Shown here: piece after piece, positions 4,303-53,223 of the stretch
How positions within the stretch are numbered: the stretch's first letter is position 1
Layout of the letters: each line of letters opens with the position of its first letter
Source of the DNA: Candidatus Microgenomatus sp.
GTDB taxonomy: Bacteria > Patescibacteriota > Microgenomatia > UBA8517
Length of the DNA stretch: 64,000 bases
Assembly: GCA_020724585.1 (NCBI GenBank)
Contig: DYGS01000001.1
Location: 136,096 to 200,095 of the forward strand
Direction of reading: 5' to 3'
Program-made: the position numbers and the translations under genes
The notes under the pieces: model-generated
The model's database searches: none
Told to the model about the DNA's origin: nothing
The model's input: only the letters and a program-made list of their open reading frames with translations

Positions 4303-5352
4303 ATGGACAATACTGCCTTTCAAGAAATAGATGTACTTTCTTCAAAAATTTCAGGTTCTAGTATACCTGAAGATTTGTTAAAGTCGGTAAACATTCGTTT
4401 GGAACAATTAAAAAAATTAACAAATTCTCCCACTTTTTTACCCGAATATGACAGGATAAATAAATATATTGATTGGATTGTTTCGCTTCCTTGGGAGAAA
4501 AAGTCGCAAGACAACCTTGATTTGGAAAATGCCAAAAAAATATTAGATGAACATCACTATGGCTTGGAAGATATTAAAAATAGAGTCTTGGAATATCTTG
4601 CAGTCATGAAATTAAAACAGGAAAAAGGTGAAGGAAGCGATGTATATAGGGCACCAATCCTCTGCTTCGTGGGTTTAGTTGGAACCGGCAAGACAACAAT
4701 TGCTTATTCGATTGCAGAGGCTTTAGGGCGAAAAATTGCCCGCATTCCATTTGGAGGAATGGGAGATCCACTAGATCTTCGTGGACAATCAAAGATGCAT
4801 CCTGAAGCTGAACCGGGAAAAATTATTAAAGCCCTAAGAGATACTGGCTTTAGAAATTCTGTGATTCTTCTTGATGAAATAGACAGGGTCACAGACCAAG
4901 GTAGAGCCTCAATAATGGGTGTTTTGGTTGAACTTTTGGATCCCGGACAAAACCATGCTTTTACGGATCACTATATAGATTATCCAATAAATCTTTCGGA
5001 GTGTATTTTTATAGCAACTGCCAACAATACAACAAATATTTCAACTGCTGTGATGGACAGAATTGAGCCTATTATGATGCCTTCGTATACAGATCAGGAA
5101 AAAATTGTAATTGGGAAACAGTATGTTTTTCCCAAAGCTCTAAAATCATCGGGGCTTCCAGAAAATACGATTTCTATAGACGATGAGGTATGGGTAAATT
5201 TGGTAAGGCCATTGGGATACGATGCTGGTATCCGTACAATGGAGAGGACAATCGCAGGCTTGGTCAGGAAAGTTGCCAAAATGGTGGTTGAGGGCAAAGG
5301 AACCCACTTTGATGTAAACTCCCAAAATATAAAACAGTTTTTACCACAATAA
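4303..5352 (+). CDS. Lon-type AAA+ ATPase module without LAN N-domain and without protease domain
   Basis: 'LPWEKKSQDNLDLENAKKILDEHHYGLEDIKNRVLEYLAV' matches the Lon pre-AAA segment. Walker A GLVGTGKT, Walker B ILLDEID, sensor-1 TANN, Arg finger VMDRIEP, sensor-2 GIRTMER. The ORF stops where the Lon protease domain would begin. Confidence 0.8.
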   Translation: MDNTAFQEIDVLSSKISGSSIPEDLLKSVNIRLEQLKKLTNSPTFLPEYDRINKYIDWIVSLPWEKKSQDNLDLENAKKILDEHHYGLEDIKNRVLEYLAVMKLKQEKGEGSDVYRAPILCFVGLVGTGKTTIAYSIAEALGRKIARIPFGGMGDPLDLRGQSKMHPEAEPGKIIKALRDTGFRNSVILLDEIDRVTDQGRASIMGVLVELLDPGQNHAFTDHYIDYPINLSECIFIATANNTTNISTAVMDRIEPIMMPSYTDQEKIVIGKQYVFPKALKSSGLPENTISIDDEVWVNLVRPLGYDAGIRTMERTIAGLVRKVAKMVVEGKGTHFDVNSQNIKQFLPQ

Positions 5353-5383
5353 TAATGAAAAACAAGAATACAATGTAGATTTA

Positions 5384-5470
5384 ATGTTTGCCTCAATTGG
5401 AATAGTTGTGGCTGTTGTCTCATTGCAAATTGCTGTAAAATACAGAGAAGGAGTAAATAAAAATGGATGA
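5384..5470 (+). CDS. mini-ORF 1: 28-aa single-TM peptide (MFASIGIVVAVVSLQIAVKYREGVNKNG)
   Basis: ATG 5384, TGA 5468-70. Hydrophobic core with a basic tail. Its stop overlaps the next start (ATGGATGA). Confidence 0.3.
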   Translation: MFASIGIVVAVVSLQIAVKYREGVNKNG

Positions 5471-5564
5471 AAGAATATCAATAGTTTATGCGATTGGAAT
5501 AATAGCTACTTTTTCGTTTATTTTATGGTCTTATAGACAGATTTTTGGAGACAAGAAAAAATGA
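5463..5564 (+). CDS. mini-ORF 2: 33-aa single-TM peptide (MDERISIVYAIGIIATFSFILWSYRQIFGDKKK)
   Basis: ATG 5463, TGA 5562-64. ATGA overlap with mini-ORF 3. Confidence 0.3.
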   Translation: MDERISIVYAIGIIATFSFILWSYRQIFGDKKK

Positions 5565-5674
5565 GTTTGCCAACCTTTTTATACATAGTTGCGTCAGTAA
5601 TTGCTGTTTACACGATTTATATCGTGTTTTATAAAGATAAAAAAATTGATAACTATTGTGATAAACGAGTTTGA
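5561..5674 (+). CDS. mini-ORF 3: 37-aa single-TM peptide (MSLPTFLYIVASVIAVYTIYIVFYKDKKIDNYCDKRV)
   Basis: ATG 5561, TGA 5672-74. Same architecture as the other two peptides: short N-terminus, ~18-aa TM helix, Lys/Arg-rich tail. Confidence 0.3.
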   Translation: MSLPTFLYIVASVIAVYTIYIVFYKDKKIDNYCDKRV

Positions 5675-5717
5675 CTTTGTTAAAGCAAGCTTGCCATTAA
5701 AATGGTAAAATTTCCCC

Positions 5718-6176
5718 ATGAAATCCTATTCTGAATTATTAGATGAGTTTAAAGAAATTTCTGCTGAATTAGAAAAGTTAATAATTAAATTTCCGAAAGA
5801 AAAGGTAGAAATAACTGTCTTTGATAAATGGTCATTAAAAAATGTTGTTTCACATCTCAATCATTGGATGGAACACGATATTCTATGTTTAGAATCATTA
5901 CAAAATGGAATTGTCCCATTTTGGGAACCAGATGTTGAAGAATTTAATAGAAAAGGAGTTGAAGCAAGAAAAGATTATAGTTGGGATATTGTGTTTAAAG
6001 AGTTTTTAGATTTAAAAGCAAAACTAATAAATATTTTTAAAAATTTAGAACTAGATTTAGAAAATGCAAGAATATGGCCAGATAAAAATGAAACGCCAAG
6101 GAGATTTTTAGAAGAAGACATTAAACATTGGAGAGATGAACACATAAAATCTCTAAACGACTTTTTCAATAAATGA
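5718..6176 (+). CDS. ClbS/DfsB-like (DUF1706) four-helix-bundle protein
   Basis: 'WSLKNVVSHLNHW' resembles the ClbS 'W..KDLVSYLLGW' core. Size 152 aa with an all-helical pattern. The assignment is tentative. Confidence 0.5.
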   Translation: MKSYSELLDEFKEISAELEKLIIKFPKEKVEITVFDKWSLKNVVSHLNHWMEHDILCLESLQNGIVPFWEPDVEEFNRKGVEARKDYSWDIVFKEFLDLKAKLINIFKNLELDLENARIWPDKNETPRRFLEEDIKHWRDEHIKSLNDFFNK

Positions 6177-8888: not shown

Positions 8889-9092
8889 ATGATTGAAATG
8901 AATAGAATGGCAATTGTATTTGACCCAAAGAGCGTTTTAGGTCCAACAAAACGAGTTGATGTTGTAGGTTCTCTAAAAATTGTTGCACTTAAGAGTAGTG
9001 ACCAACCCTCAACGGTAGTAAAAGAAGAGTATCTAAAAGAAAAAGGGGTAATAGTTTTGATAAGGTATCCATTTCCTCCGTCTGCAAGCTAA
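8889..9092 (+). CDS. hypothetical small protein
   Basis: ORF only; no motif recognised. Confidence 0.2.
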   Translation: MIEMNRMAIVFDPKSVLGPTKRVDVVGSLKIVALKSSDQPSTVVKEEYLKEKGVIVLIRYPFPPSAS

Positions 9093-53199: not shown

Positions 53200-53223
53200 A
53201 GGGTGGTATAATAACTTTTGCTA

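What the first reader, a model, noticed from the sequence alone, without database searches (positions are those of the whole stretch)
5384..5674. Three translationally coupled mini-ORFs encoding 28/33/37-aa single-TM peptides
Hand translation of the 'empty' 5353-5717 interval gives three consecutive ORFs (5384-5470, 5463-5564, 5561-5674). Their stops and starts overlap (ATGGATGA and ATGA), which is the usual signature of coupled translation. Each product has a short N-terminus, one ~18-residue hydrophobic helix and a Lys/Arg tail. All are below the ORF-track cutoff. Paralogous small membrane peptides next to an orphan Lon ATPase could be modulators of membrane proteases or transporters, type-I-toxin-like peptides, or bacteriocin/immunity-like peptides. 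Nothing similar occurs elsewhere in the window.
Basis: seen in the sequence. Interest (0 to 1): 0.55.

Follow-up and report, generated by a model that had tools for sequence, protein, structure and literature searches.

The report
Conserved small membrane-protein gene trio, partly truncated
The three tiny overlapping genes are real: they are a copy of an unannotated three-gene set for very small membrane proteins found in Woesebacteria and related uncultivated bacteria, but here the first gene has lost its front half, and nothing ties the set functionally to the neighbouring Lon-like ATPase.

Summary
The three ORFs exist exactly as described: 5384-5470, 5463-5564 and 5561-5674, with ATGGATGA and ATGA overlaps. 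Each encodes one hydrophobic helix and a basic tail.

Comparison with related loci shows a conserved three-gene module. Gene 1 is a 66-75 aa two-helix membrane protein. Genes 2 and 3 are 28-41 aa single-helix proteins.

- All 16 full-length gene-1 homologues recovered are followed by both mini-genes.
- They lie in four different genomic neighbourhoods.
- A gene-1 profile finds 134 protein clusters, nearly all 56-92 aa.
- None matches Pfam, NCBIfam, PHROGs or PADLOC, and no viral contig carries one.

Genes 2 and 3 are under purifying selection (omega about 0.1-0.2 for gene 2).

ORF1 in this window is not a native 28-aa gene. An out-of-frame deletion of about 110 nt removed helix 1 of gene 1. 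What remains is a 7-codon stub (5355-5378) and helix 2. Three independent assemblies carry the same deletion.

Within the clade the module is patchy and often lost. Its position after the Lon-like ATPase is specific to one lineage.

The most likely reading is a small hetero-oligomeric membrane complex of unknown role, possibly decaying in this strain. It is a real, unannotated family, ordinary in kind and of moderate interest.

The parts
4303..5352 (+). Lon-like AAA+ ATPase gene without a protease domain. It is the upstream neighbour and is given for context only.
   Evidence: Pfam AAA plus Lon_lid. It aligns to Lon residues about 247-579 only. In relatives the gene-1 start overlaps its stop codon (ATGA).
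5355..5378 (+). Seven-codon stub (ATG AAA AAC AAG AAT ACA ATG TAG, giving MKNKNTM*). It is the remnant of the original 5' end of gene 1.
   Evidence: It matches the MKNK... start of the L012 and P0010 gene-1 homologues. The DNA alignment shows a gap of about 110 nt relative to L100, L173 and L102. It is in a different frame from 5384-5470.
5384..5470 (+). ORF1, 28 aa. It is the helix-2 and C-terminal tail fragment of gene 1 (normally 66-75 aa with two helices). It starts at an internal Met. No Shine-Dalgarno motif lies upstream.
   Evidence: It aligns to residues 43-70 of P0001 (75% identity). The gene-1 family HMM gives only E=1.6e-4 for it. The sequence is identical in independent assemblies L002 and L003.
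5447..5453 (+). Shine-Dalgarno-like GAAGGAG, 9 nt upstream of the gene-2 ATG.
   Evidence: Read directly from the sequence. A purine-rich GGAG/GAGG motif sits at the same place in most cassettes.
5463..5564 (+). Gene 2, 33 aa. Acidic N-terminus, one transmembrane helix, basic tail. Inferred topology is N-out/C-in.
   Evidence: 82-88% identical in L100, L102, L167, L172 and L173, and recognisable in L012, L170, L171, L175, L176, L178 and L182. Omega is 0.08-0.20. Database homologues are P0014-P0018.
5548..5551 (+). GGAG, 9 nt upstream of the gene-3 ATG. A weaker Shine-Dalgarno-like motif.
5561..5674 (+). Gene 3, 37 aa. One transmembrane helix and a KDKK tail. The last 9 residues are a strain-specific extension; most relatives stop after KDKK.
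   Evidence: 71-75% identical over 28 aa in L100 and L102, and 50% in L012. The family alignment keeps Y8, A11, T18, Y20 and F23. pN is about 0.2 against pS of 0.6-1.0.
5703..5711 (+). Extended -10 element TGGTAAAAT, 6 nt before the ATG (5718) of the next gene. It marks the 3' boundary of the cassette's transcription unit.
   Evidence: Read directly from the sequence. The same TGnTAAAAT-N6-7-ATG arrangement precedes the downstream gene in L100, L102, L167, L172, L009 and L010 (sequences).

Best explanation
The interval holds one copy of a conserved, self-contained three-gene module for very small integral membrane proteins, found in Woesebacteria and in related, unnamed metagenomic contigs.

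**Composition of the module**
- Gene 1 is a 66-75 aa helical hairpin, N-in/C-in. Its motif is K-V-Y-S-D-F-L-T-G-x-A-I-A-W-F-S-x-G-I-x-x-P in helix 1 and S-L-Q/R-x-A-V in helix 2.
- Genes 2 and 3 are single-pass proteins of 28-41 aa. Each has a short acidic or neutral N-terminus outside and a Lys/Arg tail inside.

**Inferred mechanism**
- The three are made together from one mRNA through overlapping stop and start codons.
- They pack into a hetero-oligomeric unit of four helices with almost no soluble parts. This would be either a minimal membrane complex in its own right or a detachable subunit set of a larger membrane machine.

**State in this genome**
- An out-of-frame deletion of about 110 nt has removed helix 1, the most conserved part of gene 1. 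ORF1 is the leftover helix 2.
- Genes 2 and 3, with their ribosome-binding sites, are intact.
- The module is accessory and often lost in this clade. This copy may be on its way out.
- Its place behind the Lon-like ATPase is a lineage-specific insertion site, not a functional coupling.

**Shown:** coding status, conservation of the trio, the truncation, independence from Lon.
**Inferred:** topology, co-assembly, membrane role.
For: - **ORFs and overlaps.** Verified.
- **Same trio at the same site in relatives.** It sits directly after the Lon-like ATPase in L012, L100, L102, L164, L167, L170-L174, L176, L178 and L182.
- **The trio is constant.** All 16 full-length gene-1 homologues in fetched DNA are followed by two single-helix mini-ORFs. 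This includes three non-Lon contexts: L175 after ComEC with its own promoter, L180/L181 after AspRS, and L008/L182 on the minus strand between RNase J and FtsK.
- **Junctions.** Gene 1 to gene 2 is -8, -4 or -11 nt in most cassettes. Gene 2 to gene 3 is -4 nt in most. Shine-Dalgarno-like motifs are present.
- **Purifying selection.** For gene 2, window versus close relatives gives omega 0.08-0.20. For gene 3, pN is about 0.2 against pS of 0.6-1.0. The third codon position is the most variable in all three genes.
- **Breadth.** The gene-1 family has 134 clusters at E<=1e-3, nearly all 56-92 aa.
- **Fold.** AlphaFold gives a helix-loop-helix hairpin, H2-33 and H39-68, mean pLDDT 72.
- **The truncation is real.** The alignment gap is identical in JGI contig L001 and in two independent Logan assemblies, L002 and L003.
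- **Patchy distribution.** On the Lon-ATPase tree, presence and absence interleave, which implies repeated loss.
- **No RNA signal.** Rfam finds nothing. The fold z-score is -1.57.
Against: - There is no experimental evidence of translation.
- Co-assembly is inferred only from constant co-occurrence and coupling. Overlapping stops and starts are common throughout this compact genome, for example 6173/6176, 16674/16677 and 41755/41758, so the overlap alone proves little.
- No partner, substrate or phenotype is known.
- No homology to any characterised family was found.
- In the window the most conserved subunit is broken, so the local copy may be non-functional.
- ORF1 has no Shine-Dalgarno motif and may not be translated.
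- The omega values mostly reflect evolution on other branches, not in this lineage.
- The taxonomic range of the 134 clusters could not be established. They carry no source names.
Confidence: 0.6

Rival explanations
1. In this strain the cassette is a decaying remnant. Loss of helix 1 of gene 1 inactivated the module, and ORF1-3 are leftovers that no longer do anything. This partly overlaps the best explanation: the family is real but this copy is dead.
For: - The deletion removes the most conserved segment of gene 1 and shifts the frame.
- ORF1 has no Shine-Dalgarno motif.
- The cassette is absent from the closest Lon-ATPase relative, L004, and from many interleaved lineages, so loss is frequent.
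- Gene 3 in the window has two unique changes at otherwise conserved positions (T10V, F12S) and a C-terminal read-through.
Against: - Genes 2 and 3 keep intact frames, start codons and Shine-Dalgarno-like motifs.
- Gene 2 is 82-88% identical to functional-looking orthologues despite near-saturated synonymous sites.
- The same sequence is fixed in three independent assemblies.
Confidence: 0.25
2. The small proteins are membrane anchors or adaptors of the Lon-like AAA+ ATPase. They would tether or regulate it at the membrane, as in membrane-bound LonB or the small-protein modulators of FtsH.
For: In the Woesebacteria clade gene 1 starts at or overlaps the ATPase stop codon, so the two are co-transcribed and possibly translationally coupled.
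Against: - The ATPase is present in all 160 loci fetched with it, but only a small minority of them carry the cassette.
- More distant cassettes follow AspRS or ComEC, or lie on the opposite strand near FtsK, with no AAA+ gene beside them.
- The proteins have essentially no cytoplasmic domain to bind a partner.
Confidence: 0.07
3. A membrane-permeabilising system. Either gene 1 is a class II holin or pinholin-like hairpin with a weakly hydrophobic helix 1 and two modulators, or genes 2 and 3 are type-I-toxin-like peptides.
For: - Gene 1 has holin-like size and topology: two helices, N-in/C-in, a charged C-tail, and a helix 1 rich in Gly/Ala/Ser/Thr.
- There are weak sub-threshold matches. ORF1 hits Phage_holin_2_3 at E=0.04. 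ORF3 hits a type I toxin model at E=0.009.
Against: - Both matches fall far below the curated cut-offs (14.3 versus 28.8 bits; 16.4 versus 60 bits).
- There are no PHROG hits and no relatives in 2.9 million viral contigs.
- No endolysin or prophage genes occur in any context. The neighbours are core housekeeping genes.
- Type I toxins are stand-alone genes under tight repression, not distal cistrons coupled to housekeeping genes.
Confidence: 0.05
4. A leaderless multi-peptide bacteriocin (genes 2 and 3) with a two-helix immunity protein (gene 1).
For: The gene order and sizes resemble two-peptide or leaderless bacteriocin loci with a small membrane immunity protein. This rests on general knowledge only and was not tested by homology.
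Against: - The peptides are classical membrane anchors: 18-20 contiguous hydrophobic residues, an acidic N-terminus and a basic C-terminus. They are not amphipathic cationic peptides.
- No ABC exporter or processing genes occur in any locus.
- The cassette keeps a fixed position and is under purifying selection.
Confidence: 0.02
5. Chance ORFs in AT-rich spacer DNA, or a non-coding RNA element.
For: - Hydrophobic mini-ORFs occur at the rate expected by chance in this AT-rich window: 8 against 10.7 in shuffles.
- The interval is about 30% GC.
Against: - The frames are conserved across 16 or more cassettes with 30-88% amino-acid identity.
- Codon position 3 is the most variable and omega is below 1.
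- Abutting chains were never seen in shuffles.
- There is no Rfam match, and the fold z-score is -1.57.
Confidence: 0.01

Closest known systems
Operon-encoded small single-helix subunits of membrane complexes (CydX/CydH of cytochrome bd, KdpF of Kdp-ATPase, AcrZ with AcrB). Reviewed in PMC12648545; see also PMC4325964.
   Same: - Proteins of 40 aa or fewer that are little more than one transmembrane helix with a charged tail.
- Encoded in the same operon as their partner, often with overlapping stop and start codons.
- Routinely missed by annotation.
   Different: - No large enzyme or transporter partner is encoded with them here. The only constant partner is another small two-helix protein.
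- No sequence-family match.
- Two different mini-proteins are always present together.
Class II holins / pinholins (for example phage 21 S21-68). Comparison from general knowledge.
   Same: Gene 1 has about 70 aa, two helices, N-in/C-in topology and a charged C-terminal tail. Helix 1 is rich in Gly/Ala/Ser/Thr.
   Different: - No phage or lysis-cassette context, and no endolysin.
- No Pfam or PHROG holin match above threshold, and none in viral contigs.
- It always comes with two extra single-helix genes in housekeeping neighbourhoods.
Type I toxin-antitoxin toxins (Fst, TisB, Ldr, clostridial CD toxins).
   Same: Genes 2 and 3 are about 30-40 aa, with a single helix followed by a Lys-rich tail.
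   Different: - They are translationally chained distal cistrons with Shine-Dalgarno motifs, not stand-alone genes opposed by an antisense RNA.
- The HMM score of 16.4 bits is far below the 60-bit cut-off.
- They are co-conserved as a trio.
CPR-enriched hypothetical membrane protein families (Meheust et al. 2019, PMC6744442).
   Same: The module is an unannotated membrane protein set seen so far only in Woesebacteria and in unnamed metagenomic contigs. That paper reports 35 Microgenomates-enriched families, mostly hypothetical, of which 14 are predicted to be in the membrane.
   Different: That study warns that small, fast-evolving proteins are poorly captured by its clustering. Whether this trio is among its families was not checked.

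Membership tests
Unnamed gene-1 family (66-75 aa two-helix hairpin; P0001-P0012, P0019-P0150) | Full-length match to the family profile, including the helix-1 motif KVYSDFLTGxAIAWFSxGIxxP | tested here: not met
   Window ORF1 matches only profile positions for helix 2 and the tail (E=1.6e-4, 21 bits). Helix 1 is deleted. It is a truncated member, not an intact one.
Unnamed gene-1 family (66-75 aa two-helix hairpin; P0001-P0012, P0019-P0150) | Followed immediately on the same strand by two single-helix ORFs of 28-41 aa | tested here: met
   True for the window and for all 16 full-length homologues in fetched loci.
Type I toxin (for example NCBIfam NF047374, CD_typeI_toxin) | Score above the curated family cut-off | tested here: not met
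   ORF3 scores 16.4 bits against a 60-bit cut-off. ORF1 and ORF2 have no hit.
Type I toxin (for example NCBIfam NF047374, CD_typeI_toxin) | Stand-alone toxin gene controlled by an overlapping or adjacent antisense RNA | tested here: inconclusive
   The ORFs are chained cistrons behind a housekeeping gene. Promoter-like sites in the region are no more frequent than in shuffles: 6 against 9.0. The presence of an antisense RNA cannot be tested without transcript data.
Holin (Pfam Phage_holin_2_3 and other holin families) | Family HMM match above the gathering score | tested here: not met
   ORF1 scores 14.3 bits against a 28.8-bit cut-off. Full-length gene-1 homologues have no holin hit in Pfam or PHROGs.
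Holin (Pfam Phage_holin_2_3 and other holin families) | Phage or lysis-cassette context with an endolysin nearby | tested here: not met
   The neighbours are S15, PNPase, Lon-AAA, a metallophosphoesterase, UDG, RNase J, FtsK, AspRS and ComEC. No relative occurs in viral contigs.
Two-peptide / leaderless bacteriocin with immunity protein | Amphipathic cationic peptides with a dedicated exporter or accessory genes in the locus | tested here: not met
   The peptides have contiguous hydrophobic helices of 18-20 residues with an acidic N-terminus. No ABC transporter occurs in any locus.
Small accessory subunits (CydX, KdpF, AcrZ and similar) | Encoded with, and bound to, a large membrane enzyme or transporter | tested here: not met
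   No such partner gene is adjacent in any of the four contexts. Physical binding cannot be tested here.
Anti-phage defence systems (PADLOC) | Match to a defence-system protein model | tested here: not met
   No hits for gene 1, gene 2 or gene 3.

The most novel reading that the evidence does not exclude
The trio is a previously unrecognised minimal membrane device specific to CPR bacteria. It would be a hetero-oligomeric channel or pinholin-like pore of 2+1+1 helices, whose gating helix (helix 1 of gene 1) has been naturally deleted in this strain. That deletion would give either a constitutively open or a dead variant, and so a natural experiment on how the device works.
Probability: 0.1. 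Interest if true: 0.6.

Novelty: new member of a known kind. Interest (0 to 1): 0.35.

Why it matters
Small membrane proteins are systematically under-annotated. CPR bacteria are known to carry many lineage-specific membrane families of unknown function (PMC6744442).

This work turns an 'empty' spacer into a defined, testable unit. It is a tri-cistronic module with 134 gene-1 clusters in public data, a clear sequence signature, conserved gene order, and a natural truncation allele.

It also corrects a tempting guilt-by-association inference with the Lon-like ATPase. If the trio proves to be a self-sufficient membrane complex, it would be one of the smallest multi-subunit membrane assemblies known. 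It would also be a useful marker family for Microgenomates genome annotation. As it stands it is a solid annotation gain rather than a surprise.

Tried and rejected
- **One three-helix gene split by frameshifts at the A-runs** (ORF1 and ORF3 share a frame). Rejected. Relatives keep the same three separate frames and overlaps. No fused homologue exists among 134 clusters; the longer members carry N-terminal extensions only.
- **Assembly artefact for the gene-1 truncation.** Rejected. The sequence is identical in three independent assemblies.
- **Family searches.** Pfam, NCBIfam, PHROGs and PADLOC give no significant family for any of the three proteins.
- **Fold search.** Foldseek of the gene-1 model against the PDB gives a best E of 0.92, only generic helical hairpins. 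The afdb50 library was unavailable.
- **Viral contigs.** A scan with the gene-1 profile found nothing.
- **RNA.** Rfam and RNA folding found nothing.
- **Direct search with gene 3 alone.** A concatenated gene 2 + gene 3 profile recovered only gene-2 homologues, because gene 3 is mostly uncalled in databases.
- **Taxonomy of the wider family.** Cluster look-ups returned no names.
- **Literature on a Lon-like ATPase in Patescibacteria.** No papers found.
- **Paralogy of genes 2 and 3.** Inconclusive.

Full report
**1. The observation**

The window comes from a Woesebacteria (CPR/Microgenomates) genome. The Lon-like ATPase gene is found verbatim on JGI contig Ga0246236_1000003 (644 kb) and on two independent Logan assemblies. 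Its closest relatives are Woesebacteria MAGs.

The interval 5353-5717 lies between a Lon-like AAA+ gene (4303-5352) and a 152-aa gene of unknown function (5718-6176).
- 5384-5470, 28 aa
- 5463-5564, 33 aa
- 5561-5674, 37 aa

The overlaps are ATGGATGA and ATGA. Each product has one hydrophobic stretch of 18-19 residues (Kyte-Doolittle maximum 2.3-2.4) and a Lys/Arg tail.

A chance control gave a mixed answer. Isolated hydrophobic ATG mini-ORFs are as frequent as in shuffled sequence (8 against 10.7 +/- 2.6). Abutting chains never appeared in 30 shuffles, whereas there are two abutting pairs here.

**2. Comparative evidence**

I fetched 160 loci that encode orthologues of the Lon-like ATPase, 80 from GTDB genomes and 80 from metagenomes. 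A conserved backbone emerged: S15, PNPase, Lon-AAA, a variable gap, a metallophosphoesterase, UDG, RNase J, FtsK.

The gap after the ATPase is a hot spot.
- In several close relatives it is empty (L004, L007, L008, L011).
- In others it holds unrelated small genes: soluble ORFs of 57-73 aa (L005, L010) and 96 aa (L006), a 131-aa protein, and in other loci a 50-64 aa zinc-ribbon protein or a Fuseless-like two-helix protein.
- In L012, L100 and L102 it holds recognisable homologues of all three window ORFs, in the same order and with the same kind of overlaps.

There is one important difference. In those loci the first gene is 69-70 aa with two hydrophobic helices, and window ORF1 aligns only to its C-terminal 28 residues.

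**3. The family**

A profile of gene 1 found 13 proteins in the word-indexed database. In the exhaustive search of 1.84 billion representatives it found 134 clusters at E<=1e-3, nearly all 56-92 aa.

The signature is K[VI]YS[DE]F[LF]T[GN]xA[IV]AWF[ST]xG[VI]IxP, then a short loop and a second helix ending in a charged tail.

I looked up contigs for eleven members. I also scanned all fetched DNA with a family HMM. This gave 16 distinct full-length gene-1 homologues. Every one is followed on the same strand by two single-helix ORFs of 28-41 aa.

The module occurs in four contexts:
- directly after the Lon-like ATPase (the Woesebacteria clade)
- on the opposite strand between RNase J and FtsK (L008, and a second copy in L182)
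- after AspRS and before a D-Ala-D-Ala carboxypeptidase (L180, L181)
- after a ComEC C-terminus (L175), where the cassette has its own TTGACA/extended -10 promoter and a leaderless gene 1

The trio is therefore a self-contained module. The Lon neighbourhood is one lineage's insertion site.

**4. Coding status**

- All frames stay open across cassettes that range from about 88% down to about 25% amino-acid identity.
- For gene 2, window versus close relatives gives omega 0.08-0.20 with synonymous sites near saturation.
- For gene 3, pN is about 0.2 against pS of 0.6-1.0.
- The ORF1 fragment gives omega 0.16-0.40.
- In all three genes the third codon position varies most.
- Junction distances are conserved: -8, -4 or -11 nt for gene 1 to gene 2, and mostly -4 nt for gene 2 to gene 3. 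A purine-rich Shine-Dalgarno-like motif precedes gene 2 (GAAGGAG at 5447-5453 in the window) and, less clearly, gene 3.
- Rfam finds nothing in the region. The RNA folding z-score is -1.57.

**5. The truncation in this genome**

I aligned the window with L100, L173 and L102. Relative to them, the window lacks about 110 nt, which encode helix 1 of gene 1.
- The original start survives as a 7-codon stub at 5355-5378 (MKNKNTM*). Compare the MKNKYK... start of L012.
- ORF1 begins at an internal Met, which L100 also has (DLMFAM).
- The stub and ORF1 are in different frames, so the deletion was out of frame.
- The same sequence is present in three independent assemblies (L001, L002, L003), so this is not an assembly error.
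- ORF1 has no Shine-Dalgarno motif. It could at best be reached by re-initiation after the stub.
- Genes 2 and 3 are intact.

**6. Distribution**

On a neighbour-joining tree of the ATPase, lineages with and without the cassette interleave within the clade sharing at least 79% identity. The window's closest relative, L004, lacks it (L164 is shown as '-' there only because its gene 1 overlaps the ATPase by 26 nt, and it does carry the cassette).

The simplest reading is ancestral presence with repeated loss. The module is accessory, and the broken gene 1 here may be a snapshot of that loss.

**7. What it is and how it may work**

No characterised family matches. Pfam, NCBIfam, PHROGs and PADLOC give nothing significant. 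No viral contig carries a relative.

AlphaFold models gene 1 as a plain helical hairpin (pLDDT 72). It has no specific PDB neighbour (best E 0.92).

From charge distribution I infer the topologies:
- gene 1: N-in/C-in
- genes 2 and 3: N-out/C-in

This gives four helices with almost no soluble mass. Small residues recur at helix-packing spacing in all three proteins; I judged this by eye and it is an inference.

Constant co-occurrence and chained translation point to a hetero-oligomeric integral-membrane unit. Its role is unknown. A minimal channel-like or scaffold-like complex, or a detachable subunit set for a larger machine, are the options I consider most likely.

The rivals are weighed in the rival-explanations section of this report: decay of the local copy, a Lon adaptor, a holin or type-I-toxin-like system, and a bacteriocin with immunity protein. 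The context data argue against all but the first.

Paralogy of genes 2 and 3 is not established (hhalign 71% over 20 columns).

**8. Verdict**

The finding is a genuine but ordinary-in-kind addition: an unannotated trio of small membrane proteins. Named carriers are Woesebacteria; the wider family comes from unnamed metagenomic contigs. The copy here has a truncated first gene.

Overall confidence in the full explanation is 0.6, broken down as follows:
- conserved coding genes: about 0.9
- ORF1 is a truncation remnant: about 0.85
- hetero-oligomeric complex: about 0.45

Noticed in passing
window 4303-5352: The 'Lon' gene encodes only the AAA+ module plus lid (349 aa, aligning to Lon residues about 247-579). 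It has no N-domain and no protease domain. It was recovered in 160 related loci (Woesebacteria, Levy-, Gottesman-, Shapiro- and Roizmanbacteria), most with S15 and PNPase upstream and RNase J and FtsK downstream. A protease-less Lon ATPase conserved this widely deserves its own look.
   Followed up: partly
window 5353-6176; L004-L012, L085/L086, L170-L173, L178: The junction between the Lon-like ATPase and the metallophosphoesterase is a hot spot for small accessory genes. In some lineages it is empty. In others it holds the membrane trio, a 50-64 aa CxxC zinc-ribbon protein, a 63-aa two-helix protein matching Pfam Fuseless (E=3.6e-10), a 131-aa protein, or the DinB/DUF1706-like 152-aa gene seen here.
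   Followed up: partly
window 5703-5718 and 53204-53218; also L100, L102, L167, L172, L009, L010, L085, L175: An extended -10 element (TGnTAAAAT or TGnTATAAT) lies 6-7 nt before the start codon of several genes. This implies leaderless mRNAs. The pattern is conserved upstream of the gene that follows the cassette in many relatives. There are 8 matches on the + strand and 2 on the - strand of the window.
   Followed up: partly
L008 8458-8892 (minus strand); L182 (second copy, minus strand): A second, divergent paralogous trio (66 + 41 + 36 aa) sits on the opposite strand between RNase J and FtsK in some Woesebacteria. L182 carries both copies. The window lacks it and instead has a non-membrane 67-aa ORF at 8889-9092.
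   Followed up: partly
L005, L010, L012, L013, L022, L025 and others (record titles): Many TPA metagenome-assembled genomes titled 'uncultured Gammaproteobacteria' or 'Pseudomonadales' carry loci that share 52-85% ATPase identity, and mostly the same flanking genes, with the Woesebacteria/Microgenomates loci. The record titles look taxonomically wrong.
   Followed up: no
L010 (CAZGHY010000078.1) and L178 (CAZGHY010000016.1): One assembly (GCA_964526015.1) holds two different Lon-ATPase loci, one with the trio and one without. This suggests a mixed bin or two strains.
   Followed up: no
L178 3249-3900: A RHH/PIN toxin-antitoxin pair is inserted between the metallophosphoesterase and UDG in one relative. 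This is further evidence that the backbone tolerates small insertions.
   Followed up: no
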